Source: Hungateiclostridiaceae bacterium UBA1305
Lineage (GTDB): Bacteria; Bacillota; Clostridia; Acetivibrionales; DTU013
Direction: 5' to 3'
Length of the DNA: 64,000 nucleotides
Assembly (NCBI GenBank): GCA_002307275.1
Contig: DBTX01000078.1
Location: forward strand, 42-64,041
In this document: piece by piece, positions 24,494-48,384 of the stretch
Layout: each line of letters opens with the position of its first letter
Position numbering within the stretch: the first letter of the stretch is position 1
Notes under the pieces: model-generated
Told to the model about the DNA's origin: nothing
Databases searched by the model: none
What the model saw: only the letters and a program-made list of their open reading frames with translations
Position numbers and translations under genes: made by a program

Positions 24494-25096
24494 ATGGCTG
24501 ATTATTCAATAATTGCAGATTTCGGCAATGAAATCGTCAAGCTGATGCGAGACAATTTGTGCCCGGAATTGGTTCAAAATCCGGAATCTATACTTTTGTG
24601 CCCTCCCTTTGAAAAGGGAGAGTACCTTCTTGGCATCCACCTGTACGATATTCAAACCGACGGATATTATCCCCAGAATGAAATGGTAAATATCGGTGAA
24701 AAGCAACAGCGGTTTCCTCCCATGCCTGTAACCCTTTTTTATATGTTTACCGTAAACACAACTACGAATATCGCGTCAAAATCCATTGTCGAACAGCGTA
24801 TTTTATGCAGGGTAATGCAGGTGCTGCATGATAATTCTGTATTTGAGATTTCCGACATACAGCCCGGCGCAGAAACCTCTGATGAAGCTATCTCCCTGTC
24901 GCCTCACTTCCTGACCTATGAGGACAAGAGCAGGATATGGAGCAATTCAGGTTCCGGAAGCACCTCCAAGCTTGCTCTTTATTATAAGGCCGCTCCAATC
25001 CTTATCGATTCTACCCGGATTTCGCAGCCTGAACGTGTTACAAGCATAAAAGTGAAGCTTGATGGAAAGGAGCCGCGTCATGGTATCTCAGACTAA
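24494..25096 (+). CDS. DUF4255 (Pvc16/Afp16 N-terminal domain) protein: CIS tail terminator/cap
   Basis: ADFGNEIVKLMRDNL...LLGIHLYDIQ...PVTLFYMFTV...EQRILCRVMQVLHDNSVF...LSPHFLTYEDKSRIWS...LALYYKAAPILIDS follows the DUF4255 pattern as I know it. It starts only 31 nt after the preceding gene. Confidence 0.75.
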   Translation: MADYSIIADFGNEIVKLMRDNLCPELVQNPESILLCPPFEKGEYLLGIHLYDIQTDGYYPQNEMVNIGEKQQRFPPMPVTLFYMFTVNTTTNIASKSIVEQRILCRVMQVLHDNSVFEISDIQPGAETSDEAISLSPHFLTYEDKSRIWSNSGSGSTSKLALYYKAAPILIDSTRISQPERVTSIKVKLDGKEPRHGISD

Positions 25097-25883
25097 AACA
25101 CTGCATACTGTCAATGTGGCTTTCCGGCTTATAGACGACTTCACGGGAAAGCTGCTAAAAGAACCGACATTTTTCTTCTTTGCAGATGGAAAGAGGCTTT
25201 CACCCGTCAGAAAGCCTGAAGGCCTTTTCGTTTTAACAGATCTTGTTGATTTGCAAAATAAGAAGATAACCATTTGCTCGCCCTGCTATTGTGATTTTAC
25301 TGTTTCAGACCTTTCCTGTCCGGATAAAAAAAATCCTGTTATGACCGTACGGCTCAAGCCGGGAGTAAATTATCCGCTGAAGAACGGCGACACCGCATAC
25401 AGTGCATGCTTTACCGGCCACAATGGAAATGGCGTCAAAGGACTTGCCGTTGAGCTTCATGCTCCTTACCGGAATGACACAGTCAAGTTTAAAGCTCTTC
25501 AAACAATGGGACAGACTTGCCGGATTTCCCTTACAAACCCAACAGGCCTTGATTATACAGGACTTACCTTTGCAATAGCTTCAGACAACAAATCAGACGC
25601 GCCCTTTGTTTTTAAGGTACTTCGCCGCCTTGACAACACCTCCTATGAAATCGGAGAAAAACCGGAAATAGCTTTATCTCAAGCCCTTCCGGCCAAACGT
25701 GTATTTGCGTCTGAAACAGACGCATCAGGCCGCGTACTCATCCCGGTCGTTCCGGATTCTGAAGGAGGAGCATCCATACAGGAGATTGAGCTGTACGCTT
25801 CGGACGGTACAAGTACCTGTTTCAGAGGAATAACTCTTGTGGAAGGCCGCATATCTCACTTTGATGAAACATTTGAATTTTAA
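25080..25883 (+). CDS. Hypothetical protein (beta-rich, possibly prealbumin/carboxypeptidase-regulatory-like repeats) between cap and spike-tip genes
   Basis: The ORF has a strong AAAGGAG RBS 7 nt before the ATG at 25080, overlapping the DUF4255 gene end by 17 nt. I recognise no motif. Confidence 0.4.
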   Translation: MVSQTKTLHTVNVAFRLIDDFTGKLLKEPTFFFFADGKRLSPVRKPEGLFVLTDLVDLQNKKITICSPCYCDFTVSDLSCPDKKNPVMTVRLKPGVNYPLKNGDTAYSACFTGHNGNGVKGLAVELHAPYRNDTVKFKALQTMGQTCRISLTNPTGLDYTGLTFAIASDNKSDAPFVFKVLRRLDNTSYEIGEKPEIALSQALPAKRVFASETDASGRVLIPVVPDSEGGASIQEIELYASDGTSTCFRGITLVEGRISHFDETFEF

Positions 25884-25910
25884 ATATAAAAAATCGGAGG
25901 ATTTTTAGTT

Positions 25911-26297
25911 ATGGGAATTTGTGTTTGCGGCGGCGCTAATATGAAATGCACTTTCGGAGCCGCTCCGTCTACGTTTATAGTATTGCCCGAAAAAAAAGTC
26001 ATGACGACCCAGCCTATCGCAACAATCATGGATAACAAGCCCATGTCCAATATCCCGCCGTTCGGCATGTGCAGCAGTATGGCAAATCCAGCTGTGGCGT
26101 CTGCAACCGCGGCAGCCTGGGGCGTTCTTACACCGCAGCCATGTACGCCCACGATACCTGCGCCGTGGGTTCCCGGCTCACCAACAGTCCTCATTGGCAA
26201 TATGCCTGCGCTGAATGCTTCCTCAAAGCTGATGTGTGCCTATGGCGGTGTAATAGATTTTGCGACTCCCGGACAGGCTGCCATCCAGGTACCATAG
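25911..26297 (+). CDS. DUF4280 (PAAR-like) protein: candidate spike-tip sharpening protein
   Basis: GANMKCTFGAAPSTFIVLP...ATIMDNKPMSNIPPFGMCSSMANP...PQPCTPTIPAPWVPGSPTVLIGNMPALNASSKLMCAYGGVIDFATPGQ matches the DUF4280 Cys/Gly pattern. GGAGG RBS is present. Confidence 0.8.
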   Translation: MGICVCGGANMKCTFGAAPSTFIVLPEKKVMTTQPIATIMDNKPMSNIPPFGMCSSMANPAVASATAAAWGVLTPQPCTPTIPAPWVPGSPTVLIGNMPALNASSKLMCAYGGVIDFATPGQAAIQVP

Positions 26298-26321
26298 CCC
26301 CGTTATGGAGGCGGCGGAATA

Positions 26322-26855
26322 TCATATCAGCCTTTTTTTGATGGCCTCATCTGCCGTTCTGCGCCCATCCGCAATATCCATCAGCACGTCATTACATCTG
26401 TCGAGGGTATTCAGAAAGATGCCCAGCTGAATCTCAATCAAGGAATACCCGACACGCTCATCCATATTGTCAGTGAGGATAATGCTGCTTTTATAATACA
26501 GCATTTTTTTCCTTTCATCTATGCCGAGGGCTCCTCCCGGAATTTTGGGATTGAGCCTCAAAACGGCACGGGCCAGTTCATTGCAGGTGCCCGGTGAAAG
26601 GCTCTCCCTCAGGCAGGAAAAAAGCTGAAGGACATTGTAGCCGTATTGCTCTATTTCTTCCTCTTTTCTTGGCAAAAAGGAGGCTTCCACTTGAAGCTTA
26701 TCTTCCCTGTCTCCCAGATTTTCCGGGGAAATCAGCAAAACTGCCTCCCTGCGTTCTCCTTCCGGCAGGACGGTCTCTGTTGAAAACCCAAGGGCCCCAA
26801 GCTCCTGAGCAATCCTGTCGAGCAGTCTTTTCTCCAGTTCCTTTCTCACACCCAT
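26322..26855 (-). CDS. Hypothetical protein, type-III-chaperone/YbjN-like by pattern; paralogue of the upstream gene
   Basis: 177 aa from MGVRKELEK, with a GGAGAGG RBS; its ATG follows the upstream TAG by 1 nt. LQVEASFLP...YNVLQLFSCL...LRLNPKIPGGALGIDERKKMLYYKSSIIL...LDRCNDVLMDIADGRRTADEAI aligns by eye with the neighbour. Confidence 0.45.
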   Translation of the reverse strand: MGVRKELEKRLLDRIAQELGALGFSTETVLPEGERREAVLLISPENLGDREDKLQVEASFLPRKEEEIEQYGYNVLQLFSCLRESLSPGTCNELARAVLRLNPKIPGGALGIDERKKMLYYKSSIILTDNMDERVGYSLIEIQLGIFLNTLDRCNDVLMDIADGRRTADEAIKKRLI

Positions 26856-26856
26856 A

Positions 26857-39213: not shown

Positions 39214-40008
39214 TTAGTTGATCTTCACGACCGCGCCCTTAAGGTTTGCTACGCCATCCGAGTTGAGGTTCAATGTCCCCGAGGCTTTGACACTCACCAT
39301 TGCGGCCTCCAGGTTCAGTGACTGTGCAGCTTTCAGCTTCATTGAGCCGGAGCTTTCTATCTTAATGTTTCCGCCTTTTACCGTTATGTTATTGGAATCC
39401 CCTTCAATACTGATTTTTGAAGAATTACTTGCAATCATCAGCTTCTTCTCGCCGCTAATGCTCACCTTTCCGTTTTCCGCATCAATCACAACACAATTCT
39501 TTTTATCCTTGTCCGTCACCTGAAGAAGGTTCTTCTGGTCGTCCAAGCGGATATTCAACCCCTTGGGCGTTTTTACGTCAACATACTGCTTGTCCTCTTC
39601 TTCATAAAAGGTTACTTCATTCCCGCCCCGGGTCTTGAATCTTTTGATATTGTTATCTTCGTTGAAAGCTTTTTTTTGAAATTTATCTCCTGCTTTAAAA
39701 ATGCTCCCTATTACATAAGGCTTGTTGATATTTCCCTGATCGAATATTACAAGCACTTCATCTCCAACTTCAGGCAGGGCATATATTCCCCACTGGCTGC
39801 CTCCGTACATGGTGGCAACTCTCATCCAGTCCGATATATTCCTTTTTGCATCTCTTACCAGAAGCTCCACCTTCACCATACCCGGCAGGTCCTTGTTGTT
39901 GTTTTCCACTACGACGCCAACCATGACGCCATATATTACAGGCTCACCGGCTTCATTCCTGGAATCTTTCTGAATAAGTGCAGGATCCAGCAAATCATAA
40001 ATTCCCAT
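39214..40008 (-). CDS. gpV/gp5-OB-fold spike protein with C-terminal beta-helix (VgrG-like; Afp8 C-terminal equivalent)
   Basis: GVMVGVVVENNNKDLPGMVKVELL...SDWMRVATMYGGSQWGIYALPEVGDEVLVIFDQGNINKPYVIGS is the Phage_base_V/Gp5 OB-fold block. The C-terminal repetitive (I/V)xxGxxx(I/V) strands suggest a spike helix. It has a TAATG overlap with the upstream gene. Confidence 0.8.
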   Translation of the reverse strand: MGIYDLLDPALIQKDSRNEAGEPVIYGVMVGVVVENNNKDLPGMVKVELLVRDAKRNISDWMRVATMYGGSQWGIYALPEVGDEVLVIFDQGNINKPYVIGSIFKAGDKFQKKAFNEDNNIKRFKTRGGNEVTFYEEEDKQYVDVKTPKGLNIRLDDQKNLLQVTDKDKKNCVVIDAENGKVSISGEKKLMIASNSSKISIEGDSNNITVKGGNIKIESSGSMKLKAAQSLNLEAAMVSVKASGTLNLNSDGVANLKGAVVKIN

Positions 40009-41114
40009 TAAACTCCCAACCTCGCTTCAATCATTGTTGAAAAAAATGATTCGCCAATACTATGATTGACTCTCACAATATAGTAATTTCCATCCAGCCC
40101 GTCACCAAGCTTTTTGACCTTGACAAACCTGCCGGGCACTATTTCAGGAAGGCCTATACACTCAATATTAGCTGTGGCATAACTCCCGTTCAGTTTTTTC
40201 AAAAGCTCCTCCGCCCTGGATCCGGCTTCCTGTTCAGAACCTACCGATGAGTCAATCACGACCTTTTTCAGCTTTTGCAGCGCTTTTTTTGCCGAAGCGC
40301 CCTTGCTCATTTGTATGTCAGACTTTGCAATACCCGAAATCATCTTTCCTTTGTCCGCATCGCTGCTTCTTACCTCAAGCTCCAGTACCTGCCCTTCAAG
40401 GGAAGCTCTTCTTTCAAAGCTGAGCAGATTGTATCCCCATTCAAGCTCCAGCAGAGGAGTTTTCAAAGGCATCGGCTTACGGAAATAAACCTTTCCCTGG
40501 CAAACAAAAAATTCATAATTAATCCTGCCCGCAAGCCTCACAAGGAAATCAAAATCACTTTCCCCTGCTATTTCTATCTTTCTTTCCGGTGTTTCAACAG
40601 AATCCAGCTTCAAGCCATCGTAAAAATTTTTATAAGTCTGATTTTTCAATATATTTGAAACCACATCGCCAAGAGCTGTTTCCGTGCGCTGTCCGGTTGT
40701 CCGGCAGTTCATCATGATACCCTTTACATCGGTGCATTCAACCCTTATGGATGGAATATCATTGCCAACACGGAAAACAACCGCTGAAATGTAACCTTTA
40801 AACACATTAACCGTTTTTATATATCCAATATCAATGCTTATCTTTTTTCCCAGTTGAAAATACTTTTCCGTTATAGCCGGAGTAAAGGTTCTCTTTATAG
40901 GATCAAAGGCCCCAAGTATCTCAAATACACAGCCGCTCGCCTCATTCTCACAGGTAAGGTCAATCGCAAGCTCCTTCAGAACCAGCGTTCCCTCTGACAA
41001 TAAATCCTTGGAGTCAATGCTGATTTTATATGTCGGCACTTTAAAAGCACTGTATTTTGACGACAGCTTTTCAAAGGTGTATTTTTCATTTGTCATTAAA
41101 TTCTGACCGGCCAT
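40008..41114 (-). CDS. Phage late control gene D-like baseplate hub protein (gp27-like; Afp8 N-terminal equivalent)
   Basis: 368 aa. The N-terminal FKVPTYKISIDSKDLLSEGTLVLKELAIDL pattern, and its position between the LysM protein and the spike, are as in P2 gpD and CIS hubs. Confidence 0.65.
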   Translation of the reverse strand: MAGQNLMTNEKYTFEKLSSKYSAFKVPTYKISIDSKDLLSEGTLVLKELAIDLTCENEASGCVFEILGAFDPIKRTFTPAITEKYFQLGKKISIDIGYIKTVNVFKGYISAVVFRVGNDIPSIRVECTDVKGIMMNCRTTGQRTETALGDVVSNILKNQTYKNFYDGLKLDSVETPERKIEIAGESDFDFLVRLAGRINYEFFVCQGKVYFRKPMPLKTPLLELEWGYNLLSFERRASLEGQVLELEVRSSDADKGKMISGIAKSDIQMSKGASAKKALQKLKKVVIDSSVGSEQEAGSRAEELLKKLNGSYATANIECIGLPEIVPGRFVKVKKLGDGLDGNYYIVRVNHSIGESFFSTMIEARLGV

Positions 41115-41136
41115 TAAGTATCTCCCATCCCCTGCA

Positions 41137-41823
41137 TCATGTTATGGAGGGTACCTTGAGCACCATTCCATGGGCAATTTTCCTCGGATTCAGAATTCCA
41201 TTTTCTTTGGCAATCACCCTCCACAGGGCAGGATCGTCATATTCCTCGCCCGCCATATTCCACAACTGGTCCGTACCCTTTATGGAGCGCTGCTTCGTCC
41301 TGTCGGGAGAATGAAGAACATTTTTCCGTGCATTGGTTACCCCATGATCCGCTTCCATCAGGCTAAGGACCAATTTCGCCCTGACCGGCTTTCCGCTGGG
41401 CAAAAACATGGTATAGGTTTCATTGACAGACTTTATTACCGCCTTGAAGCTTAAAGACCCCCATGCAAATATGACTTCCGGAGGATGATGGGTTTCCGCT
41501 TCAATTCTCATCAGCTCGGTAATTTTTTTCGTATAATCCCTGACATCTTCTTTATCGCCTGAAATTGCGCTTTTTACAGTTTGCATCGGATCCGTCTGAA
41601 TATTTTTAAAGGGGCTCTGGGTATAGGTATCAAAATACAGTGTCATACTCAGGGTACTCGCGCCGCCATCTTTAAACTGAATAATTATGTTGTCCGTACC
41701 GGGAGCTATTTTGGAATTATATTTATTTACCGTGGAAATTACATATTCACTTGGATTGAAAAGTACCTTTATTTGCTCTTTAAAATTTTTACCATATTTT
41801 ATAACCGCTTTTTCCAGACCCAT
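41137..41823 (-). CDS. LysM-domain CIS tube-initiator protein (Afp7/Pvc7-like)
   Basis: The N-terminal EKAVIKYGKNFKEQIKVLFNPSEYVIST is a tube-like domain. The C-terminal GTDQLWNMAGEEYDDPALWRVIAKENGILNPRKIAHGMVLKVP is LysM. Confidence 0.8.
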   Translation of the reverse strand: MGLEKAVIKYGKNFKEQIKVLFNPSEYVISTVNKYNSKIAPGTDNIIIQFKDGGASTLSMTLYFDTYTQSPFKNIQTDPMQTVKSAISGDKEDVRDYTKKITELMRIEAETHHPPEVIFAWGSLSFKAVIKSVNETYTMFLPSGKPVRAKLVLSLMEADHGVTNARKNVLHSPDRTKQRSIKGTDQLWNMAGEEYDDPALWRVIAKENGILNPRKIAHGMVLKVPSIT

Positions 41824-41835
41824 AACATATACCTC

Positions 41836-44800
41836 CTATCGGAACAGCCCTCTTCGCTGTCTTTCAACCCTCAGTCTGTCTTCAAGCCTTTTGTATACCT
41901 GCTCTGCCAGTTTTGCAACATCGGGAATACTTCCCTGTACCTCGGATTTATTATAAATAATGGAATCTTCTATATTTTCGTTGATAACCTTAAATTTCGG
42001 ACTGCTCTCCTCAGCCTTACCGCCTGTTCCGGAGCTTACATCCCCGCTGCCGGTATGGCTTCCATCTTCAGCGCCGCTCCCGTTTCTTAAAACCAATTCG
42101 GACTGCAGCACTTCATCATATGCTTCATTATCAGCCGCGCCCGATGCATGAATACCGGATTCTTTCAAGAGCATTCCGCCATATTGCTCCGGCAATGGAA
42201 TTTTCTCTGTCCCCGGGATTCTTACTCCTGTTTTCTTCCATGCCCAGGTTATCAATTGCTTTATCCTCATTACTCCAAATGCATCGGAATATATGCCCCG
42301 GCTTCCCATGCCGCTCCGCTGCGGACCGCTTCCGCCCTCTTCCTTCTGTCGTGCTCTTTCTTCCCTGTATATCCGTTCCGTATCAGTAAAGTTCTCATCT
42401 GAATTCTTATATTTGTAAAATGATTTGTCCTCTGTCACACCGATTTTGTTGAATTTGCCGGATCTGTCCAAATATTTGCTTACCTGTTCATCAATCTCTC
42501 CGTCTGCATTCATGTCAATCTGCCCATTTATATGCTGTCCGTCCGCAAGCCTTCCGGTATGCCTGTTTCCCATGTCGGCACTTGCTTTGTACTCCGCTCT
42601 CCGTGCCGGACTCCTTGCACCCATGCCGGATTCTCTTAAAAGCATTTCGCCGTATTGCTGCAGAAATGGAATTTCCCCTGTTTCCAGGCTTTCCCTTCCC
42701 GTTTTCTTCCATATTCGGTCTATCCATTCATATACTTTCTTTAATCCAAACACACCGGCTTTCATGCCGATTCCGATAAAGCCTCCATCTGCCGCGAAGC
42801 TGTTCCTGTGATTCATGACTGTTCCCGTTCCGGAACCGTCTGGCAGTCCATCTAACTGCCTGTCTGCATATCCGTATGTTTGACCGTTTGTCTGCCTGTC
42901 CGTATGTCCGTATAACTGACCGTCCGTCTGGCTGCTTGTCTGCCTGTCTATATATCTGTATGCCTGACCATTTGTCTGGCTGCTTGTCTGCCTGTCCGTA
43001 TTTCCGTACAACTGACCATTTGTCTGGCTGCTTGTCTGCCTGTCTATATATCTGTATGCCTGACCATTTGTCTGGCTGCTTGTCTGCCTGTCCGTATTTC
43101 CGTACAACTGACCATTTGTCTGGCTGCCAGTCTGCCTGTCCGTATGTCCGTATAACTGAACGTCTGCCTGACTGTCTGTACGTCCACCGGCCTGTCGCCT
43201 TCCGGTATCGGCACTTGCTCTGCGCTCCGCATTCCGGGCCATGCTCCATGCACCAATAGTAGATTCTTTTAAAAGTATTTCACCAAATTGCTGCGATAAT
43301 GGAATTCCCTCTGCTCCAGGGGTTTTTTCCCATGTTTTCCTCCATACCCGGTTTATCAATTCATTTACTTTCTTTATTCCAAATGCTCCGGCTTTCATTC
43401 CAATTCCGGCAAAGCCTTCCTCTGGCGCAAAACGGTTCCTATAATCCATGACCGCTCCCGTACCGGAACCGGTTGTCTGCCTGTCCGCATATCCGTATAG
43501 CTGAATGTCTGCCCGACTGCCTATACGTCCGTATACCTGAGTGTCTGTCCAGCTGTCTGCACGTCCGTATAACTGAACACCCGCCCGGCTGCCTGTACGT
43601 CCATCGGCCTGTCTCCCTCCGATGTCGGCATCTGCTCCATACGCTGCTCTCTGTGCCCTATCCCTTATGTCAATACCTGATTTTGTAAAAAGCACTTTAC
43701 GATATTGCTCCGGTAATAAAAACCTCTCCGTTTCCGGGATTTTTTCTCCTGTTTTCTTCCAGGCCCGGGTTATCCATTCCTTTACTTTGCTTAATCCAAA
43801 TACCCCGGCTTCCACTCCGATTCCGGCATATTCATTCTCTGCCGCGAAACGGTTCCTGTAATCCATGACCGCTCCCGTACCGGAACCGTCCGTCTGACCG
43901 GCTGCATATCCATATAACCGAACATCTGTCCGGCTGTCCGCACGCCCGTGCAGCTGAACGTCCGTCTGACCGGCTGCACGCCCGTTGGCCTGCCGTCGCT
44001 GAATATCCCCACTTGTTCTGTCCTCCGGCCTTTGTACCGGATCTCTTGCAGCACTGCCGGATTCTTTAAAAGGCACTTCATGATATTGCTTCGGCAATGA
44101 AAATCCCTTTGTTTCCGGGATTTTTCCTTTCGTTTTCTTCCATGCCCAGGTTATCAATTCCTTCACTTTGCTTAATCCAAATGTCCCGGCTTCCACTCCG
44201 ATTCCGGCGTATTCATTCTCTGCCGCAAAACGATTCCTATAATACATGACTGCTCCCGTACCGGAACCGTCTGTCTGCCTGTCCGCATATCCATATACCC
44301 GCACATCTGCCCGGCTGTCCGCGCGCCCGTGTAGCTGTACATCTGCCCGGGTTATCAATTCCTTTACTTTTTCTGCTCCAAATACCCCGGAATTTGTACT
44401 CTGGCTTCCCCTGCCGCTCCATTGAAGCCTCATGCCGCCTTCCGTCTTCCGACTTCCGCCTTCTTCCCTTCGCCCCCGGTATTCCTCTCTTCGCGTAAGA
44501 AGCTCGCGAATAAGCAACTCAACTCTGCTGGCGGTTTTTTTACTTTCCCTGTCTGAAAGTGTGTTTTCATCTTCCTGTGGATTTTTTCCGATAACCGGTA
44601 CCGTACCTTGTGATTTATTGAGCAGAATATCCGGCACTTCTCTTTTAAGGATGCTTTCGGGTGCTGCAAAGCTGTTCATCAGCTTCACTGCCTGTCCGCG
44701 ATTGAGTGAACCGGGCATAATAGCGCGCAGCAGAAGGTTGATATTTATAATAGTTTCATTATGCTCATTGTGAATATGCACGGCCCCGCGGCCTTTGCCA

Positions 44801-44964
44801 TATTCCGCCCTGTCCTGTGCAGGCTCCAGAAAGTCAAGCTCCGCCGCCCGGCTATGAAAATCTTCACTGGAAAATCCATAGAAAGAAAATATTTTTGCAT
44901 CAAAGGTTCGGTCAAGCATTCCGATATTTCTTTTTATGCTTCTTATGTCCAGTATTGAAATCAT
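41836..44964 (-). CDS. Tape-measure-like protein (Afp14/Pvc14 position), 1042 aa, built largely from nested internal repeats
   Basis: It lies between the second tube gene and the LysM gene. The conserved-looking C-terminus is DVAKLAEQVYKRLEDRLRVERQRRGLF. About 5-6 copies of a ~130-aa module (GSGTGAVM(D/Y)YRNRFAAENEYAGIGVEAG.FGLSKVKE.IT.AWKKT...) are present. A 16-aa micro-repeat (YGNTDRQTSSQTNGQA) is also present. Confidence 0.65.
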   Translation of the reverse strand: MISILDIRSIKRNIGMLDRTFDAKIFSFYGFSSEDFHSRAAELDFLEPAQDRAEYGKGRGAVHIHNEHNETIININLLLRAIMPGSLNRGQAVKLMNSFAAPESILKREVPDILLNKSQGTVPVIGKNPQEDENTLSDRESKKTASRVELLIRELLTRREEYRGRREEGGSRKTEGGMRLQWSGRGSQSTNSGVFGAEKVKELITRADVQLHGRADSRADVRVYGYADRQTDGSGTGAVMYYRNRFAAENEYAGIGVEAGTFGLSKVKELITWAWKKTKGKIPETKGFSLPKQYHEVPFKESGSAARDPVQRPEDRTSGDIQRRQANGRAAGQTDVQLHGRADSRTDVRLYGYAAGQTDGSGTGAVMDYRNRFAAENEYAGIGVEAGVFGLSKVKEWITRAWKKTGEKIPETERFLLPEQYRKVLFTKSGIDIRDRAQRAAYGADADIGGRQADGRTGSRAGVQLYGRADSWTDTQVYGRIGSRADIQLYGYADRQTTGSGTGAVMDYRNRFAPEEGFAGIGMKAGAFGIKKVNELINRVWRKTWEKTPGAEGIPLSQQFGEILLKESTIGAWSMARNAERRASADTGRRQAGGRTDSQADVQLYGHTDRQTGSQTNGQLYGNTDRQTSSQTNGQAYRYIDRQTSSQTNGQLYGNTDRQTSSQTNGQAYRYIDRQTSSQTDGQLYGHTDRQTNGQTYGYADRQLDGLPDGSGTGTVMNHRNSFAADGGFIGIGMKAGVFGLKKVYEWIDRIWKKTGRESLETGEIPFLQQYGEMLLRESGMGARSPARRAEYKASADMGNRHTGRLADGQHINGQIDMNADGEIDEQVSKYLDRSGKFNKIGVTEDKSFYKYKNSDENFTDTERIYREERARQKEEGGSGPQRSGMGSRGIYSDAFGVMRIKQLITWAWKKTGVRIPGTEKIPLPEQYGGMLLKESGIHASGAADNEAYDEVLQSELVLRNGSGAEDGSHTGSGDVSSGTGGKAEESSPKFKVINENIEDSIIYNKSEVQGSIPDVAKLAEQVYKRLEDRLRVERQRRGLFR
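42860..43200 (-). repeat. 48-nt in-frame tandem repeat array; core is a 96-nt unit present twice with no mismatch
   Basis: 42928-43023 and 43024-43119 are identical by my reading (CTGGCTGCTTGTCTGCCTGTCTATATATCTGTATGCCTGACCATTTGT + CTGGCTGCTTGTCTGCCTGTCCGTATTTCCGTACAACTGACCATTTGT). Degenerate copies flank both sides. Confidence 0.9.
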
Positions 44965-44975
44965 TTTTTACACCT

Positions 44976-45425
44976 TTAAAAAAAAATACCCATCAGGGCT
45001 CCAATCTTATCCACAGATATCCCTGAATGGGCCACTTCAAGGCTTTCTATAAGAACCTTGTTTCCCAGCGCGTCAAGATCGCCTATTTCCCATTTAAGCA
45101 GTACAATCGGTTCTCCGAAGGAATAGCTCGACACGGTTTCACCCTTTGCATCCCTGACATTGATCGTTCCTGAAAAAGGAAGTATTTTCCCTACCAGAAG
45201 CGGCGTAAGCATGGATAACATGGATGATTCGCACAGTCCGTGTTCAAAAACCAGCTTGTGCGGCGTAGTATACTGCTTCTGCAGAACATGGACATAGTCA
45301 TTGACGCCGCCTTCCTTTAATACGTCAACCTCTATATCCCTTGATATGTTTTTTATTTTGGAAAAGCTCATCATAATCGGCCCTATTGACACCGAAAACC
45401 GGTTCCCAACCACAGGTCTTGCCAT
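44976..45425 (-). CDS. Second tube-family protein (T4 gp19-like; Afp5/Pvc5-like)
   Basis: MARPVVGNRFSVSIGPIMMSFSKIKNISRDIEVDVLKEGG... follows the same fold pattern as the 141-aa tube protein. AAGGGAGAG RBS is present. Confidence 0.7.
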   Translation of the reverse strand: MARPVVGNRFSVSIGPIMMSFSKIKNISRDIEVDVLKEGGVNDYVHVLQKQYTTPHKLVFEHGLCESSMLSMLTPLLVGKILPFSGTINVRDAKGETVSSYSFGEPIVLLKWEIGDLDALGNKVLIESLEVAHSGISVDKIGALMGIFF

Positions 45426-45489
45426 TAATAAGCACTCTCCCTTTGCTTTTTATTCCGGTGATAATGCCGGCAAAGCATAAAAGCTTTTG

Positions 45490-45684
45490 TCAAAAACCCT
45501 CAAAGACATTCTTTGGAGCATTATTGAGCTTTTTATTAATAGAAGATATTTCACCGCACCACCTTTTTCTTTCTCTGTGAGGCATATTCATTACCTCATT
45601 GTTACTCCAGTGGAAATAGTAGGCGATAAAAGCTATTTCCTTATATAGCTGCTCTTCAGGATATACCTTTATGCCTGATCCGTA
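45490..45684 (-). CDS. Start-less 64-codon ORF in the -1 frame (YGSGIKVYPEEQLYKEIAFIAYYFHWSNNEVMNMPHRERKRWCGEISSINKKLNNAPKNVFEGF); predicted C-terminal extension made by -1 frameshifting from the upstream gene
   Basis: Translated by hand; it is not in the ORF track. No ATG/GTG/TTG precedes the conserved-looking YPEEQLY...HW...ER.RW segment. That segment resembles a small protein family I recall from CIS loci (DUF6760-like; number from memory). The frame is open from just upstream of the slippery site to the TGA at 45490-45492. Confidence 0.55.
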   Translation of the reverse strand, partial: YGSGIKVYPEEQLYKEIAFIAYYFHWSNNEVMNMPHRERKRWCGEISSINKKLNNAPKNVFEGF

Positions 45685-46037
45685 AAATTTACGGCCGCCT
45701 CAAAACCATGCCCGCATTTAGGACACATCACACTTATCGTGGGCGCTTCCACTTGATTTATTCTTTGATACATCTCCTGCAAAAATGCCAGGTCCGCAGT
45801 AAATAATTTCTCAATAACTTTAGTATCTATTGCTTTTATTTCACCAAGCTTTGTTATTACCCTGGCAAGAAGAATAATTGTAAGGTAGCCAGGATTCTGC
45901 TGCACCCGCGGATCCCTCATAGGGAGTATTTCATCCGCCGCCGTTGCCAGCCGCATGATGCCATGCCTGTGCAGCGTGCCGCTTTCGTCCACATAGCCTT
46001 TGGGTAATTCAAAGGTGAATTCTGTCTCAAATGCCAT
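45669..46037 (-). CDS. Tail-assembly-chaperone-like protein (122 aa) with C-terminal zinc-ribbon-like CPKCGH motif; zero-frame product of the candidate frameshift pair
   Basis: MAFETEFTFELPKGYVDESGTLHRHGIMRLATAADEILPMRDPRVQQNPGYLTIILLARVITKLG.... GGGGG RBS precedes the ATG at 46037. Its position after sheath and tube, and before the tape measure, mirrors P2 E and lambda G. Confidence 0.55.
   Translation of the reverse strand: MAFETEFTFELPKGYVDESGTLHRHGIMRLATAADEILPMRDPRVQQNPGYLTIILLARVITKLGEIKAIDTKVIEKLFTADLAFLQEMYQRINQVEAPTISVMCPKCGHGFEAAVNFTDQA
45684..45690 (-). other. Candidate -1 programmed ribosomal frameshift heptamer A_AAT_TTT
   Basis: The minus-strand mRNA reads GTA AAT TTT ACG GAT CAG GCA TAA. 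The heptamer fits X_XXY_YYZ in the zero frame, five codons before the stop. A weak stem (TCAGG/CCTGA) starts 5 nt downstream. Confidence 0.5.
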
Positions 46038-46051
46038 AAACAAGCCCCCGA

Positions 46052-46115
46052 TCTGAAAAAATAAGTTCACGGTTTATCTGTCAGGCAGGAAACATCCTAC
46101 CCGGCAGATAAACCG
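46052..46115 (-). promoter_or_regulatory. Intercistronic stem-loop after the tube gene (possible attenuator/partial terminator or RNA-stability element)
   Basis: The 11-bp perfect inverted repeat CGGTTTATCTG (46105-46115, minus sense) pairs with CAGATAAACCG (46070-46080) around a 24-nt loop. TGAACTTATTTTTT follows on the mRNA; the T-run starts 9 nt after the stem, so this is not a textbook terminator. Confidence 0.4.
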
Positions 46116-46148
46116 GACAAAACTGTAAAGCTGTGGCGGGTTGAGTTG

Positions 46149-46574
46149 TTACGCTGTGCGCGTCATTCCCTCATGGGCCAGCTCCAGGCTTTCAATGGCA
46201 ACCTCTGAAGCTGTTGCATTGAAATCGGGCGCAGTATATTTAGCCGGCCATGCGTTGATCAGCTGCCATGATGCGGTAGCATCCCCCTTGGGACCTAATA
46301 CTGTAATCGTTACAGTCTTTCGTTCAATATCCCCTTCACTTATTCCCTGAAGCCATTCGTACAACTCCATCGAGCTTGAAACGCCCCACTTAAGCGTTAT
46401 GTTTCCGTACTTGGTCAATCCAGGTAATTTAACAGGCGTAGATACGGGAGAATCCCCTTCCCTGTATTCAATTACATCAACATTGGCATCAAATCCGCTT
46501 ATTTCGGAAAATCCCGCCTGATCAACGCCTGTTATCTCAAGGCGGAATTTAAACTTTGTATATGGATAATCCAT
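46149..46574 (-). CDS. CIS inner tube protein (T4 gp19-like / TIGR02241-type; Afp1/Pvc1-like)
   Basis: YTKFKFRLEITGVDQAGFSEISGFDANVDVIEYREG...GNITLKWG is the conserved phage-tail-region tube block. 141 aa. AAAGGGGATGG RBS is present. Confidence 0.85.
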   Translation of the reverse strand: MDYPYTKFKFRLEITGVDQAGFSEISGFDANVDVIEYREGDSPVSTPVKLPGLTKYGNITLKWGVSSSMELYEWLQGISEGDIERKTVTITVLGPKGDATASWQLINAWPAKYTAPDFNATASEVAIESLELAHEGMTRTA

Positions 46575-46638
46575 CTGTCCATCCCCTTTCAGTTTTATTC
46601 AGCATTTCACTTCAGCCTGTTCCTGTCTTCTTCAAAGA

Positions 46639-48384
46639 TCATCCCTGCGATTCATTTACCTTCTGGGTAATCCTGAATATGACGAATTCAGCAGGTTTTA
46701 CAGGTGCCACACCTATAACGCATATCAGTCTTCCGTTGTCGATATCATCCTGAGTCATGGTGGTTCTTCCGATGTCTACAAAAAAGGCTTCATCTGCGGT
46801 ACCTCCGGCAAGAGCGCCATTCCTCCACAGATTTGTCAGGAATACGTCTATGGTGCGTTTTACTCTCGACCAAAGCATCACTTCATTAGGCTCAAATACT
46901 ACCCAATTGGTATTTGACTTTATGGACTCTTCAATAAAGATGAAAAGCCTTCTCACGTTTACATATTTCCAATTAGACTCGGAAGAACATGTTCTTGCGC
47001 CCCATACGCGTATTCCCTGTCCCGGGAACACCCTTATAAGGTTCACGCCCTGCGGGTTCAGGATATCCTGCTCTCCTTTATTGTACAGGCAGTCAAGTCC
47101 TGTGGATCCGCGGACCACCTCATTGGCAGGCGCTTTCTGAACGCCTCTTTCCGTATCGGAACGGGCATATATGCCTGCAATTGAAGCTGACGGCGGAATG
47201 AATGTACTCTTCTTGTCCAATGGATCGAATACTTCAAGCCATGGATGATAAAGTGCCGCATAATTACTGTCAAACATGGATCTGTGAGCAATAACCTCAT
47301 CAACTTTTTTCTTATCTCTTGGAATATCCAGGAGCGCAAAGCGGCTGCCAAGATTTTCGCAATGTGCCACTAATGTGATCTGGACGTTTGGATCAGTAAC
47401 CCCCGGAACAGCCATTATGCTTACCTGTGAATTTTCAAGAAATGCCTGTATTCCGCTTCTTTCACCCGGGCCATTGTCAGCGCCGATAAATACGGAAGCG
47501 TCGACGTTCATGCTTTGGCCGTTGCTGCCGCCTGCAAGTGTGATTACAAAGGAATCGGCCGTACCGCCGGATATCTGCTCAAAAGGCCTGATTATTTCTT
47601 TCATACCGGAGTCCGCTTTATAAGCAATTGAAACAATCTCCGATTTAGCCATCCTCTTCTCAATATAGTTGGCTGCCGCCGGATTGAAGGACACATTCTC
47701 ATAAGCCTCATCGATGTCCTCATATTTCACGGTAACACTGATCTCGCAGGTTGAGATTGTTTTTGTGGGAAGAATTTTCTGGTCAATAACATCAATATCA
47801 AAAGCTTTTTCAAATTGAATAAAATCATCCTGCACTTTTATAATTTTGTTCAGTTTGGTTTGTTCTCCATCCGTATAGGAAACAATATCCCCTTCATAAA
47901 AGCCTGCGGTGTTTTTTACAATGTACCTGTTCCCGGTATATGAATCCTCTTTAATATCAAGTATCTGTGTCTTGGCTTTTGATGCGTCAGTGATTATTAC
48001 TCTGATTTTATTCCCCCAAACTCCGGGGTTTTTCGCGCAAATGTAAGACAAGCCGGCAGATTTTTCACTATCTCCGTCATAAGCTGCAGCCTTCGCGTCA
48101 GATGGAGCAACTCTCATAATAAAGCATCTGGCCCCGCCATTGATAAAAAACTGTTCTATACAGATGGGAAGATAAGAATAGTCGCCATATTCAACCTTTG
48201 AAAGATACCCTCCGAATTTCCTTTTGAAATCAGCAAAGCTTGTAACAAGTTCCGGCACGCCTTTCACTGCGCCTCTCGCAGTCATCCCTACAAAGCCTGC
48301 CGTACTGGTGCTTACACCTTCCATCGGCCTGCTTCCCTGATCAAATTCTTCGACATAGACTCCCGGCGATAAATACTCTGACAT
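46639..48384 (-). CDS. Contractile sheath protein (phage tail sheath family; Afp2-4/Pvc2-4-like), single copy
   Basis: MSEYLSPGVYVEEFDQGSRPMEGVSTSTAGFVGMTARG is the canonical sheath N-terminus. YAALYHPWLEVFDP and GVNLIRVFPGQGIRVWGART are sheath C-terminal blocks. Confidence 0.9.
   Translation of the reverse strand: MSEYLSPGVYVEEFDQGSRPMEGVSTSTAGFVGMTARGAVKGVPELVTSFADFKRKFGGYLSKVEYGDYSYLPICIEQFFINGGARCFIMRVAPSDAKAAAYDGDSEKSAGLSYICAKNPGVWGNKIRVIITDASKAKTQILDIKEDSYTGNRYIVKNTAGFYEGDIVSYTDGEQTKLNKIIKVQDDFIQFEKAFDIDVIDQKILPTKTISTCEISVTVKYEDIDEAYENVSFNPAAANYIEKRMAKSEIVSIAYKADSGMKEIIRPFEQISGGTADSFVITLAGGSNGQSMNVDASVFIGADNGPGERSGIQAFLENSQVSIMAVPGVTDPNVQITLVAHCENLGSRFALLDIPRDKKKVDEVIAHRSMFDSNYAALYHPWLEVFDPLDKKSTFIPPSASIAGIYARSDTERGVQKAPANEVVRGSTGLDCLYNKGEQDILNPQGVNLIRVFPGQGIRVWGARTCSSESNWKYVNVRRLFIFIEESIKSNTNWVVFEPNEVMLWSRVKRTIDVFLTNLWRNGALAGGTADEAFFVDIGRTTMTQDDIDNGRLICVIGVAPVKPAEFVIFRITQKVNESQG

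What the first reader, a model, noticed from the sequence alone, without database searches (positions are those of the whole stretch)
24494..48384. Complete Afp/PVC-type contractile injection system in a spore-forming Firmicute, with no recognisable tail-fibre gene
Seen in the sequence: one sheath, two tube paralogues, a tape-measure-like protein, LysM initiator, gpD-like hub, gpV/gp5 spike, gp25, two baseplate-J-like proteins, a gpI-like protein, an Afp15/Pvc15-like double AAA+ ATPase, a DUF4255 cap and a DUF4280 (PAAR-like) tip.

No capsid, portal, terminase or lysis genes are present, and no TssB/TssC/TssM-type genes. This is therefore neither a prophage tail nor a T6SS.

Established: DUF4255 together with the AAA+ ATPase is the hallmark that separates eCIS-type loci from phage tails. 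Afp13/Pvc13 fibres mediate target binding in the extracellular systems, while the Streptomyces cytoplasmic CIS lack fibres.

Inference: no ORF here resembles a fibre (no adenovirus-like, collagen-like or T4 gp34-37-like repeats). This system may therefore act intracellularly or membrane-anchored rather than as a released particle.
Basis: partly seen in the sequence, partly recalled or inferred. Interest (0 to 1): 0.8.

Follow-up and report, generated by a model that had tools for sequence, protein, structure and literature searches.

The report
Clostridial contractile injection system, fibre-like gene included

Summary
The gene inventory is real. Pfam confirms sheath, two gp19 tubes, CIS_tube initiator, gpD/YqbQ-like hub, gpV spike, gp25, two Baseplate_J, Tail_P2_I, WHD+double-AAA ATPase, Pvc16_N (DUF4255) cap and DUF4280. 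No head, terminase, lysis or TssB/C/M genes occur in the 64 kb.

The boundaries and the "no fibre" claim are wrong. The cap/DUF4280 genes end a 13.4-kb + strand operon starting at 12884. Its first gene is a 602-aa protein whose N-terminus matches NCBIfam CIS13_fam (E 1.6e-25). In 51 of 75 related clostridial loci its homologue sits directly after the gpI/Cis12 gene, the fibre slot.

Between it and the cap lie membrane or envelope genes. A bitopic MORN-repeat protein is present in 71 of 71 relatives with room to see it. A HAMP sensor and a tail-anchored protein are frequent. TolC-like and HlyD-like proteins occur in a subset. A GNAT plus 1000-aa MFS pair recurs too, so the locus spans about 12884-53016.

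The closest solved sheath is the membrane-anchored haloarchaeal "T6SS", then the Streptomyces cytoplasmic CIS. The membrane-associated inference therefore stands on different evidence, and it remains untested.

This is a widespread, uncharacterised clostridial CIS variant.

The parts
12884..14692 (+). Cis13-like fibre-like baseplate protein (602 aa). It has an N-terminal docking domain, a chain of Ig-like beta-sandwiches and a C-terminal Big_2 domain. No TM segment and no signal peptide.
   Evidence: NCBIfam CIS13_fam, residues 29-172, E 1.6e-25, 90 bits (below the equivalog cutoff of 370). More than 500 full-length homologues, and all named ones are Clostridia. Directly after gpI/Cis12 in 51 of 75 related loci. 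AF2 model, pLDDT 75. Big_2 match 7quz, rmsd 1.8. No hydrophobic segment. The start at M19 follows the 100%-identical 602-aa protein P0001.
14692..15597 (+). Tail-anchored membrane protein (301 aa): about 230 aa N-terminal soluble domain, one TM at 234-252, short C-terminal tail.
   Evidence: No family hit. Hydropathy. Homologue next to the Cis13-like gene in 35 of 71 loci, with the TM position conserved.
15581..18256 (+). Membrane sensor (891 aa): signal anchor, about 280-aa outside domain, TM hairpin, Cache-like domain, TM, HAMP, cyclase-homology region, TPR.
   Evidence: HAMP and sCache_3_3 are weak hits; TPR. Homologues in 53 of 71 loci. HAMP in 9 of 10 homologues scanned and Guanylate_cyc above cutoff in 3 of 10, plus C. 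profunda.
18280..19779 (+). Bitopic MORN-repeat membrane protein (499 aa): basic N-terminal tail of about 75 aa, TM 75-93, MORN repeats predicted outside, variable acidic repeat tail.
   Evidence: MORN, E 2.4e-18. Homologue downstream of the Cis13-like gene in 71 of 71 loci with at least 6 kb of room. All 78 homologues have a TM. Net charge is +4.3 in the 30 aa before the TM and about 0 after it. The conserved parts are the juxtamembrane region, the TM and the MORN repeats.
19767..21833 (+). TolC/OEP-like protein with an N-terminal signal or anchor (688 aa).
   Evidence: Pfam OEP, E 4.6e-10, 40 bits (cutoff 22), two stretches. Between the MORN and cap genes in 12 related loci. No PDB sequence match.
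21844..24462 (+). Secreted coiled-coil protein with a weak HlyD-like hairpin and a Cu_amine_oxidN1 domain (872 aa).
   Evidence: Cu_amine_oxidN1, E 2e-6. HlyD_2 is weak, E 0.003. HH_RND_rel (weak) on the homologue in L003. Found in 11 related loci.
24494..25096 (+). Cap / tail terminator (Cis16/Afp16-like, DUF4255).
   Evidence: Pvc16_N, E 8e-24. It starts 31 nt after the previous gene.
25080..25883 (+). Conserved beta-sandwich protein between the cap and tip genes (267 aa); function unknown.
   Evidence: No family hit. Homologues in 21 loci at the same position. The AF2 model is poor (pLDDT 56) and all-beta, with a transthyretin-like domain match to 5aq0, TMt 0.67.
25911..26297 (+). PAAR-like spike tip (DUF4280).
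   Evidence: DUF4280, E 1.9e-37. Median 62% identity across 54 loci.
26322..26909 (-). Small protein, paralogue of the next gene; candidate chaperone or immunity protein. Start uncertain.
   Evidence: 28% identity to 26857-27462, E 7e-28. Conserved in near relative L086.
26857..27462 (-). Small protein, paralogue of the previous gene. Weak YbjN / T3SS-chaperone-like signal.
   Evidence: YbjN, E 0.057, not significant..
27474..29267 (-). Candidate cargo/effector (597 aa): about 200-aa acidic disordered N-terminus, a Gly/Ser-rich middle with one hydrophobic segment, and a helical C-terminus.
   Evidence: No family hit. Only 2 clusters among 5.8 billion. No homologue in 82 related loci. Same position in L086. 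Composition.
29286..31493 (-). Afp15/Cis15-like AAA+ ATPase (WHD + two AAA domains).
   Evidence: AAA, E 2e-37 (two stretches); WHD, E 2.4e-22.
31490..32428 (-). Charged, low-complexity protein (312 aa) that overlaps both neighbours, consistent with translational coupling. Function unknown.
   Evidence: No family hit. A 310-aa gene occupies the same position in L086. E+R+K = 32% of residues.
32421..33572 (-). gpI / Cis12-like baseplate wedge protein.
   Evidence: Tail_P2_I, 30.3 bits (cutoff 20.6). phrog_1160 baseplate, E 1.4e-15. Weak match to 9gtp_E.
33575..35731 (-). Baseplate_J / Cis11-like wedge protein (718 aa).
   Evidence: Baseplate_J, E 2.7e-8. 9gtp Baseplate-J chain (the entry that also holds the Streptomyces sheath sequence), E 4e-31.
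35758..38748 (-). Second Baseplate_J / Cis11-like wedge protein (996 aa).
   Evidence: Baseplate_J, E 2.5e-5. 9gtp, E 8.5e-26; also Pvc11 and Anabaena All3317.
38764..39174 (-). gp25-like sheath initiator.
   Evidence: GPW_gp25, E 5.7e-24.
39214..40008 (-). gpV/gp5-type spike.
   Evidence: Phage_base_V, E 2.5e-19.
40008..41114 (-). gpD/YqbQ-like hub.
   Evidence: YQBQ, E 9.5e-9 (above cutoff). Phage_GPD is below cutoff.
41137..41823 (-). Tube initiator (CIS_tube). The C-terminus is LysM-like by eye only.
   Evidence: CIS_tube, E 1e-33. No LysM hit.
41836..44964 (-). Tape-measure-like repetitive protein (1042 aa).
   Evidence: Assigned by its position between the second tube and the initiator. 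No family hit. At least 5 protein modules. DNA tandem repeats at 42856-43602. A 1556-aa gene sits at the same position in C. profunda.
44976..45425 (-). Second tube paralogue.
   Evidence: Phage_T4_gp19, E 3.3e-13.
45669..46070 (-). Tail-assembly-chaperone-like protein with a C-terminal CxxC...
   Evidence: phrog_508, E 2.7e-8. Gp41_Mu is a weak hit.
46149..46574 (-). Tube protein.
   Evidence: Phage_T4_gp19, E 6.2e-46.
46639..48384 (-). Sheath.
   Evidence: Phage_sheath_1 and Phage_sheath_1C. Nearest solved structures are 9ezm, E 3.4e-129, then Streptomyces 8bky, E 1.8e-105. Best phage hit is 36% identity.
48692..49432 (+). LytTR response regulator, divergent from the sheath gene; probable regulator of the locus.
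   Evidence: Response_reg + LytTR. Same position in L003, L008 and L009.
49421..52438 (-). 1005-aa membrane protein: N-terminal TM/outside-domain/TM-hairpin module fused to a 12-TM MFS domain.
   Evidence: MFS_1, E 8e-31. TM map. Homologue inside or next to the CIS locus in C. profunda and in at least 17 other loci.
52432..53016 (-). GNAT acetyltransferase paired with the MFS protein.
   Evidence: Acetyltransf_1, E 2.9e-9. The same pair occurs in L003, L005 and L008.
53181..59087 (-). Possible further regulators: STAND/TPR/LuxR(GerE) protein, GHKL histidine kinase and a second LytTR regulator. Membership of the locus is not shown.
   Evidence: Geller et al. (PMC8213781) list GerE regulators with an upstream kinase as eCIS shell genes. 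A LytTR/kinase pair lies next to the CIS in L013.

Best explanation
SHOWN. The window holds an intact, complete contractile injection system (CIS) locus of a lineage that is widespread in Clostridia.
- The locus is larger than reported: about 12884-53016, in two convergent operons plus an upstream MFS/GNAT pair and a LytTR regulator.
- It does encode a fibre-like protein. This protein has an N-terminal domain of the Cis13 type, a chain of Ig-like domains and a conserved Big_2 tip.
- It carries a conserved set of membrane or envelope proteins. The bitopic MORN protein is universal. A tail-anchored protein and a HAMP/cyclase-type sensor are frequent. TolC-like and HlyD-like proteins are optional.

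INFERRED.
- The particle is built in the cytoplasm with the help of the AAA+ ATPase and a tape-measure-like protein.
- It is loaded with the lineage-specific 597-aa protein as cargo, through that protein's long disordered N-terminus.
- Its baseplate periphery (two Cis11 paralogues, Cis12 and the Cis13-like trimer) docks onto the cytoplasmic parts of the conserved membrane proteins.
- Firing therefore happens at the producer's own envelope. It is either directed outward, like a T6SS, as in the haloarchaeal relative, or directed into the producer's own membrane, as in Streptomyces with CisA.
- The HAMP sensor and the LytTR system set when this happens.

The identity of the system is near certain. 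The envelope-associated mode of action is the more likely of two live options.
For: Core inventory by Pfam.

Tight operon from 12884 to 26297, with gaps of 31 nt or less or overlaps. A promoter-like site matching 11 of 12 positions lies at 12623-12652.

CIS13_fam N-terminal match, E 1.6e-25.

Synteny in 82 related loci:
- Cis12 directly upstream in 51 of 75
- MORN transmembrane protein downstream in 71 of 71
- cap in 58 of 71
- HAMP protein in 53 of 71
- PAAR-like protein in 51 of 71

Conserved N-in/C-out topology of the MORN protein and a C-terminal anchor in the 301-aa protein.

The OEP-like and 872-aa proteins have signal peptides, so the operon mixes cytoplasmic particle parts with extracytoplasmic proteins.

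The distal Big_2 tip of the Cis13-like protein is its second most conserved part: majority-residue fraction 0.62 against 0.37-0.42 for the middle domains, with 24 columns at least 90% conserved in residues 391-602. That fits a conserved partner better than variable targets.

The nearest solved relatives are cell-associated systems:
- 9ezm, the haloarchaeal membrane-anchored CIS, which has two cis11 genes, a Cis12 and a Cis13
- the Streptomyces cytoplasmic CIS, whose firing needs a bitopic membrane protein encoded in the fibre slot

No lysis cassette was found in the window.

Cargo: the 597-aa protein lies next to the ATPase, is almost an orphan, and is followed by two paralogous small proteins.
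Against: - No localisation data exist for any member of this lineage.
- The Cis13-like protein has no transmembrane helix, unlike Anabaena Cis13. It is built from Ig-like and Big_2 domains, which are typical of extracellular adhesins and of phage tail or fibre decoration. That would suit a released particle that binds targets.
- A tape-measure-like gene implies a fixed-length particle, as in eCIS.
- No direct evidence links the membrane proteins to the baseplate. They could be sensors, immunity factors or release factors.
- No homology to CisA or Hbor_38620 was tested, because neither sequence was available.
- The CIS13_fam score is far below NCBI's family cutoff.
- The profile of the family does not hit Anabaena Cis13 in the PDB. 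It hits only Cis19, and weakly (E 0.046).
Confidence: 0.5

Rival explanations
1. This is a classical extracellular CIS. Particles assemble free in the cytoplasm and are released by lysis of the producer. They bind target cells through the Ig-like/Big_2 Cis13-like fibre. The co-encoded membrane proteins are only sensors, regulators, self-protection or release factors.
For: - A fibre-like protein with adhesin-type domains and no membrane anchor.
- A tape-measure-like gene, a cap and an ATPase, as in Afp/PVC.
- Geller et al. validated an antibacterial toxin from the eCIS locus of a Firmicute, Ruminiclostridium cellulolyticum.
Against: - No lysis genes in the window.
- The fibre tip is conserved rather than variable.
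- The MORN membrane protein is present in 71 of 71 loci, embedded between structural genes. A simply released particle should not need it.
- The closest characterised relatives are not released particles.
Confidence: 0.35
2. The + strand membrane-protein genes (14692-24462) and the MFS/GNAT pair are unrelated neighbours. The CIS is only what the first reader listed.
For: None of these proteins has a known CIS role. The OEP-like and 872-aa genes occur in only 11-12 of 71 loci.
Against: - They sit between the Cis13-like gene and the cap gene, with gaps of 31 nt or less.
- The MORN, HAMP and 301-aa genes keep that position across families from Heliorestis to gut Lachnospiraceae, even when the module is moved relative to the sheath or baseplate genes.
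- The MFS and GNAT genes are inside the locus in C. profunda.
Confidence: 0.04
3. This is a defective prophage tail or an R-type tailocin (PBSX-like).
For: The sheath, tube, gp25, J, I, V and D families are shared with myophage tails. The hub matches the YqbQ family of a B. subtilis prophage-like element.
Against: - A DUF4255 cap, a double-AAA ATPase and DUF4280 are present.
- No head, terminase, lysis, integrase or tRNA genes were found.
- The best phage sheath hit is 36% identity, against E 3e-129 to a CIS sheath.
- The Cis13-like protein has no match in 50,697 phage genomes.
Confidence: 0.02
4. This is a canonical T6SS (subtypes i-iii).
For: It is a contractile sheath-tube-spike machine with an AAA+ ATPase.
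Against: Profile searches assign the sheath and tube to the phage/CIS families, not to VipA/VipB or Hcp. No TssM/J/L-type hit appears on any ORF. A tape-measure-like gene and a DUF4255 cap are present.
Confidence: 0.01

Closest known systems
Haloarchaeal membrane-anchored CIS ('archaeal T6SS', Halogeometricum borinquense; PDB 9ezm; PMC11566945)
   Same: - Closest solved sheath: E 3.4e-129, with the C-terminal 330 residues aligned nearly end to end.
- Two Cis11-type genes plus a Cis12 and a Cis13.
- A membrane protein is genetically tied to the cluster.
- The paper itself places Bacillota Cis11 as the nearest relatives of the haloarchaeal ones.
   Different: - The host envelope is a monoderm with thick peptidoglycan, not a membrane plus S-layer.
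- The candidate anchors here are a bitopic MORN protein, a tail-anchored protein and a HAMP sensor, not a 6-TM protein (Hbor_38620).
- No in situ data exist here.
Streptomyces cytoplasmic CIS with CisA (PDB 8bky/8bl4/9gtp; PMC12237407)
   Same: - Second-closest sheath (E 1.8e-105). Both Baseplate_J proteins hit the Baseplate-J chain of 9gtp, the entry that also holds the Streptomyces sheath sequence.
- The wedge is built with two Cis11 units and one Cis12.
- A bitopic membrane protein (N-in, C-out) is encoded near the fibre slot.
   Different: - Streptomyces lacks any fibre-like gene. This lineage has a conserved 600-aa Cis13-like protein.
- The outside domain is made of MORN repeats, not a substrate-binding-like domain.
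- No sequence comparison with CisA was possible.
Anabaena thylakoid-anchored CIS (PDB 7b5h; PMC8894136)
   Same: It has baseplate-attached trimeric fibre-like proteins, Cis13 and Cis19, that mediate anchoring or form small fibres. The N-terminus of the family profile hits Cis19 (All3314) weakly, E 0.046.
   Different: Anabaena Cis13 is short and ends in a transmembrane helix. Here the protein is 602 aa, soluble and rich in Ig-like domains. There is no detectable sequence match to All3316.
Afp / PVC extracellular CIS (PDB 6rao, 6j0n)
   Same: Same core parts list, including the Afp15-type ATPase and the Afp16-type cap.
   Different: - One sheath gene instead of three.
- The hub and spike are split rather than fused as a VgrG.
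- Two Baseplate_J paralogues.
- No adenovirus-like Afp13 fibre.
- Extra membrane-protein module.

Membership tests
Afp/PVC-type CIS (eCIS in the broad, dbeCIS sense) | Phage-type sheath, gp19-type tube, and a gp25 / Baseplate_J / gpI baseplate | tested here: met
   Pfam hits above cutoff.
Afp/PVC-type CIS (eCIS in the broad, dbeCIS sense) | Afp15-type AAA+ ATPase together with an Afp16-type DUF4255 cap | tested here: met
   AAA x2 + WHD; Pvc16_N, E 8e-24.
Afp/PVC-type CIS (eCIS in the broad, dbeCIS sense) | Spike plus PAAR-like tip | tested here: met
   Phage_base_V, E 2.5e-19; DUF4280, E 1.9e-37.
Afp/PVC-type CIS (eCIS in the broad, dbeCIS sense) | Tape-measure protein | tested here: inconclusive
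   The 1042-aa repetitive protein is in the right position, but no family matches it.
Afp/PVC-type CIS (eCIS in the broad, dbeCIS sense) | No capsid, portal or terminase genes | tested here: met
   Every ORF of 120 aa or more that was scanned across the 64 kb. The rest of the 109-190 kb source contig was not seen.
Afp/PVC-type CIS (eCIS in the broad, dbeCIS sense) | Afp13/Pvc13-type (adenovirus-like) tail fibre | tested here: not met
   No such hit on any ORF. The fibre-like protein here is of a different type.
Afp/PVC-type CIS (eCIS in the broad, dbeCIS sense) | Particles are released and act extracellularly | not testable with these tools
   Needs microscopy or fractionation.
CIS13 family (NCBIfam NF053767, equivalog) | Whole-protein score at or above the curated cutoff (370 bits) | tested here: not met
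   90.2 bits. Only profile positions 3-142 of 392 are matched.
CIS13 family (NCBIfam NF053767, equivalog) | Shared N-terminal domain | tested here: met
   E 1.6e-25. The domain is always N-terminal in the 150 listed hits, out of 3,745 representative clusters found.
CIS13 family (NCBIfam NF053767, equivalog) | Gene directly follows the Cis12 (gpI-like) gene | tested here: inconclusive
   Not in this window, where it heads a separate operon. True in 51 of 75 related loci, including C. profunda.
Anabaena-type Cis13 membrane anchor | C-terminal transmembrane helix | tested here: not met
   No hydrophobic segment. 70 of 82 homologues have none.
Haloarchaeal T6SS-like CIS | Close sheath and Cis11 relationship, and two cis11 genes | tested here: met
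   Sheath match to 9ezm, E 3.4e-129. Two Baseplate_J genes.
Haloarchaeal T6SS-like CIS | Hbor_38620-type 6-TM anchor protein | not tested
No protein in the locus has that architecture apart from the much larger MFS fusion.
Haloarchaeal T6SS-like CIS | Baseplate attached perpendicular to the cytoplasmic membrane; contact-dependent killing | not testable with these tools
   Needs cryo-ET and competition assays.
Streptomyces cCIS / CisA | Bitopic membrane protein (N-in, C-out) encoded by the baseplate/fibre slot and needed for firing | tested here: inconclusive
   The topology and position are matched by the MORN protein. Homology and function were not tested.
T6SS subtypes i-iii | TssB/TssC sheath, Hcp tube and TssJLM membrane complex | tested here: not met
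   No such Pfam hits. The sheath and tube fall in the phage/CIS families.
Prophage tail / R-type tailocin | Phage-type lysis cassette, and no DUF4255 cap or AAA ATPase | tested here: not met
   The cap and ATPase are present and no lysis genes were found.

The most novel reading that the evidence does not exclude
Clostridia, including many gut Lachnospiraceae and Oscillospiraceae, possess a Gram-positive counterpart of a T6SS. On this reading it is a phage-tail-like CIS docked to the cytoplasmic membrane by a dedicated, lineage-specific envelope complex. That complex would comprise the universal bitopic MORN protein and a tail-anchored protein, and in some lineages a TolC-like / HlyD-like / MFS trio that could form a passage through the thick cell wall. 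Firing would be gated by a HAMP/cyclase-type surface sensor. The Ig-like Cis13-type 'fibre' would bind this complex rather than a target cell.
Probability: 0.2. Interest if true: 0.9.

Novelty: new variant of a known kind. Interest (0 to 1): 0.6.

Why it matters
How monoderm, thick-walled bacteria use contractile injection systems is open. The only studied case, Streptomyces, fires inside its own cells.

This locus belongs to a lineage found in at least 542 genome stretches. It covers cultured cellulolytic Clostridia as well as rumen and human-gut MAGs, and I found no experimental description of it.

It keeps a full eCIS-like particle but adds a conserved fibre-like protein and a fixed set of membrane proteins. 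That makes the anchoring question directly testable in cultured strains.

It also shows that calling a locus 'fibreless' from Afp13 homology alone, as published catalogues do for Firmicutes, can miss a lineage-specific fibre gene. A survey that reports gut CIS producers as Bacteroidota may likewise overlook a clostridial system.

Tried and rejected
- PDB sequence searches with the Cis13-like protein, alone and as a 25-sequence profile. Neither matched Anabaena Cis13 (All3316). The only results were a weak N-terminal hit to Cis19 and a Big_2 hit.
- Foldseek of the AF2 model against the PDB and BFVD. Generic Ig-like multi-domain matches dominated, with TM-scores of 0.1-0.2. These runs say what the domains are but not what the protein is homologous to.
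- AF2 of the 267-aa cap-adjacent protein from 7 sequences gave pLDDT 56. Its matches show no more than a beta-sandwich or transthyretin-like fold.
- Deep search for the 597-aa protein found only itself and one relative, so no profile or reliable model could be made.
- PDB searches of the cap, OEP-like and 872-aa proteins gave nothing useful.
- A search for sequence motifs shared between the two promoter regions found nothing. Promoter and terminator scans were not above chance in number.
- Rfam and tRNA scans found nothing.
- Cluster look-up gave no organism names for the closest relatives.
- Listing ORFs downstream of the ATPase in other loci was uninformative, because most loci end there.
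- Two literature searches that used min_terms returned noise.
- Rejected as explanations: prophage tail, tailocin and canonical T6SS (see rival explanations).
- 'Spore-forming' could not be tested. The SPOB_a domain on the kinase at 57151-58359 is not specific to sporulation.

Full report

Yes for the inventory. On the - strand, from 48384 down to 29286, Pfam assigns the following:
- a sheath (Phage_sheath_1 and Phage_sheath_1C)
- a gp19-type tube, and a second gp19-type tube
- a CIS_tube initiator
- a YqbQ/gpD-like hub
- a Phage_base_V spike
- gp25
- two Baseplate_J proteins (996 and 718 aa)
- a Tail_P2_I protein
- a WHD + double-AAA ATPase

A tail-assembly-chaperone-like gene lies at 45669-46070 (phrog_508). 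On the + strand lie Pvc16_N (DUF4255) at 24494-25096 and DUF4280 at 25911-26297.

- Pfam finds no LysM domain in the 228-aa initiator.
- The 1042-aa 'tape measure' has no family match. It is assigned by its position and its repeats.

No ORF of 120 aa or more that I scanned across the 64 kb is a head, portal, terminase, integrase, lysis or TssB/C/M-type protein. There is no tRNA. The flanks are uronate and sugar metabolism genes and regulators.

**2. The coordinates cut the locus, and the 'no fibre' claim fails.**

The cap gene starts 31 nt after an 872-aa gene. It is the seventh gene of a tightly packed + strand operon that begins at about 12884. A promoter-like site matching 11 of 12 positions lies at 12623-12652.

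The first gene of the operon encodes a 602-aa protein with these properties:
- Residues 29-172 match NCBIfam NF053767, 'CIS13 family contractile injection system protein', at E 1.6e-25. The score of 90 bits is far below the equivalog cutoff of 370, so only the N-terminal domain is shared.
- It has more than 500 full-length homologues of 570-615 aa. Every named one comes from Clostridia.
- A genome scan found at least 542 encoding stretches. The closest are Anaerobacterium chartisolvens DSM 27016 and a Bacillota MAG, both at 69% identity.
- In Crassaminicella profunda the homologue sits directly after the Tail_P2_I (Cis12) gene. Across 75 related loci with enough upstream sequence, this is so in 51. 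That is the slot where CIS loci encode fibres.
- The AF2 model (pLDDT 75) shows an N-terminal helix plus a beta domain, then a chain of Ig-like sandwiches ending in a Big_2 domain.
- It has no hydrophobic segment.
- It has no match in 50,697 phage genomes.
- It is the only ORF in the window with either its N-terminal or its C-terminal domain.

In Anabaena, Cis13 is a trimeric 'tail fibre-like' protein whose N-terminus binds the baseplate, and Cis19 forms small fibres. The profile of the clostridial family hits Cis19 only weakly (E 0.046) and does not hit Cis13 in the PDB. I therefore call it Cis13-like by domain and position, not a member of that family.

**3. What lies between the fibre-like gene and the cap.**

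- A 301-aa tail-anchored protein (TM at 234-252).
- An 891-aa sensor with two outside domains, HAMP and a cyclase-homology/TPR region.
- A 499-aa MORN-repeat protein with one TM.
- A 688-aa OEP/TolC-like protein with a signal peptide.
- An 872-aa secreted coiled-coil protein with weak HlyD-like and Cu_amine_oxidN1 signals.

tblastn of all window proteins against 82 related loci gave the counts below. They are for genes downstream of the fibre-like gene, in the 71 loci with at least 6 kb of room.

| Gene | Loci with a homologue (of 71) |
|---|---|
| MORN protein | 71 |
| cap | 58 |
| HAMP protein | 53 |
| DUF4280 | 51 |
| 301-aa protein | 35 |
| 267-aa beta-sandwich protein | 21 |
| MFS fusion | 17 |
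| OEP-like | 12 |
| 872-aa protein | 11 |

The block [Cis13-like - (301 aa) - (HAMP) - MORN - (OEP - 872 aa) - cap - (267 aa) - DUF4280] stays together in three arrangements. It can follow the baseplate genes, precede the sheath gene, or stand as a separate convergent operon as it does here.

All 78 MORN homologues have a TM near residue 78. The net charge is +4.3 in the 30 aa before the TM and about 0 after it, so the MORN repeats are predicted to lie outside the cell. The juxtamembrane region, the TM and the MORN repeats are the conserved parts.

Among the HAMP homologues scanned, 9 of 10 carry HAMP. Three of 10, plus C. profunda, carry a Guanylate_cyc domain above cutoff. The window's own copy gives no Guanylate_cyc hit.

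The GNAT plus 1000-aa MFS pair lies upstream of the sheath here (49421-53016). It lies inside the locus in C. profunda and beside it in other relatives. A LytTR regulator divergent from the sheath gene is kept in the close relatives.

**4. The unassigned ORFs inside the reported range.**

None is a hidden fibre.
- The 267-aa protein is an all-beta, transthyretin-like sandwich protein. Its model is low-confidence.
- The 312-aa protein is charged and low-complexity.
- The 597-aa protein has a 200-aa acidic disordered N-terminus and a Gly/Ser-rich middle. It is almost an orphan, with 2 clusters among 5.8 billion.
- It is followed by two paralogous proteins of about 190 aa (E 7e-28), one with a weak YbjN-like signal.

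A near relative keeps exactly this layout. By position next to the ATPase, by variability and by the disordered N-terminus, I read this cluster as cargo plus chaperone or immunity genes. This is inference, based on what is known of eCIS effector loading.

**5. Lineage.**

The nearest solved sheath is 9ezm from the Halogeometricum borinquense membrane-anchored 'archaeal T6SS' (E 3.4e-129). Next come the Streptomyces sheaths 8bky and 8bl4. Afp, PVC, Anabaena and AlgoCIS are further away. Both Baseplate_J proteins hit the Baseplate-J chain of 9gtp, the entry that also holds the Streptomyces sheath sequence.

[quoted passage not shown] It also reports that the system has two cis11 genes, a Cis12, a Cis13 and a cluster-linked membrane protein.

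In Streptomyces, firing needs CisA, a bitopic N-in/C-out protein encoded in the fibre slot.

The best phage sheath hit is only 36% identical.

**6. How it most likely works.**

Shown: the complete part list, the operon structure and the conserved linkage to membrane proteins.

Inferred: cytoplasmic assembly, followed by docking of the baseplate periphery to the cytoplasmic parts of the MORN and/or 301-aa proteins, and firing at the producer's envelope under control of the HAMP sensor and the LytTR system.

In favour:
- The operon mixes cytoplasmic and extracytoplasmic proteins.
- The distal Big_2 tip of the fibre-like protein is conserved. Its majority-residue fraction is 0.62, against 0.37-0.42 for the middle domains. 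That is unusual for a tip that recognises variable targets.
- No lysis genes are present.
- The nearest characterised relatives are cell-associated.

Against:
- The fibre-like protein has no membrane anchor and is built from adhesin-type domains.
- A tape-measure-like gene is present.
- No localisation data exist.

I put the envelope-associated mode at about 0.5 and a classical released eCIS at about 0.35.

**7. Known or new?**

eCIS loci in Firmicutes are already catalogued. Geller et al. tested a toxin from the Ruminiclostridium cellulolyticum locus and list it as 'No afp13 in operon'.

I found no paper describing the structure, localisation or accessory membrane module of a clostridial CIS. 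No paper in the library pairs MORN repeats with contractile injection systems. The library excludes most subscription journals.

The system is therefore a new variant of a known kind. Its inference about membrane association is plausible, but on different grounds.

Noticed in passing
window 41836-44964 (-); DNA repeats 42856-43602: The tape-measure-like protein contains at least five copies of a module of about 130-210 aa, each ending in W(K/R)KT (aa 275, 402, 541, 752, 909), plus short TDRQTSSQTNGQ-type repeats. A public assembly of the same organism (L001) breaks inside this gene. Pfam gives a very weak Nucleoporin_FG signal, reminiscent of the 'Nucleoporin?' label Geller et al. gave to two Firmicute eCIS toxins.
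   Followed up: partly
L021, L025, L029, L053, L056, L064, L076 (human-gut MAGs); also rumen, rabbit and goat MAGs: Homologous loci (baseplate genes, Cis13-like, MORN, cap, DUF4280) occur in human-gut Lachnospiraceae, Oscillospiraceae and Clostridiales MAGs. A 2025 metagenome survey (PMC12210884) reports that CIS producers in the human digestive system belong to Bacteroidota, and Geller et al. report depletion of eCIS from mammalian microbiomes.
   Followed up: partly
window 15581-16780 (+) and 51239-52438 (-): The N-terminal halves of the HAMP sensor and of the 1005-aa MFS fusion share the same architecture: TM, an outside domain of about 300 aa, then a TM hairpin. They also share weak similarity (E 0.033) and an 'AVDSxGxxYxLxN' motif. 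This hints at one sensor module fused to two different outputs.
   Followed up: partly
window 18280-19779 (+); DNA 19494-19677: The MORN protein ends in an acidic tandem repeat (period 30/60 nt, 'EDASISTAAD'). The whole C-terminal half is not conserved among its 78 homologues.
   Followed up: partly
window 48692-49432 (+), 53181-59087 (-): Three regulators flank the locus: a LytTR response regulator divergent from the sheath gene, a 1261-aa STAND/TPR/LuxR(GerE) protein, and a GHKL kinase with a second LytTR regulator. GerE regulators with an upstream kinase are reported eCIS 'shell' genes.
   Followed up: partly
window 14692-15390 (+): By eye, the cytoplasmic domain of the 301-aa tail-anchored protein has a pattern reminiscent of a degenerate protein-kinase fold. 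No profile supports this.
   Followed up: no
window 31490-32428 (-): A 312-aa charged, low-complexity gene occupies the slot after the gpI-like gene, where most relatives carry the Cis13-like gene. It overlaps both neighbours by 4-8 nt and is kept in the near relative L086. Its role is unknown.
   Followed up: partly
L011 (MAG labelled uncultured Desulfovibrionaceae): One locus with the full clostridial gene order comes from a MAG labelled as Desulfovibrionaceae. It is either a mis-binned contig or a transfer outside Bacillota.
   Followed up: no
window 1-12600 and 59399-64000: The flanks encode hexuronate and sugar catabolism genes (UxaC, UxaE, family 4 glycosidase, 6-phosphogluconate dehydrogenase, PfkB kinase, AraC regulator, Fe-ADH). 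This is ordinary chromosomal context with no mobile-element genes.
   Followed up: yes
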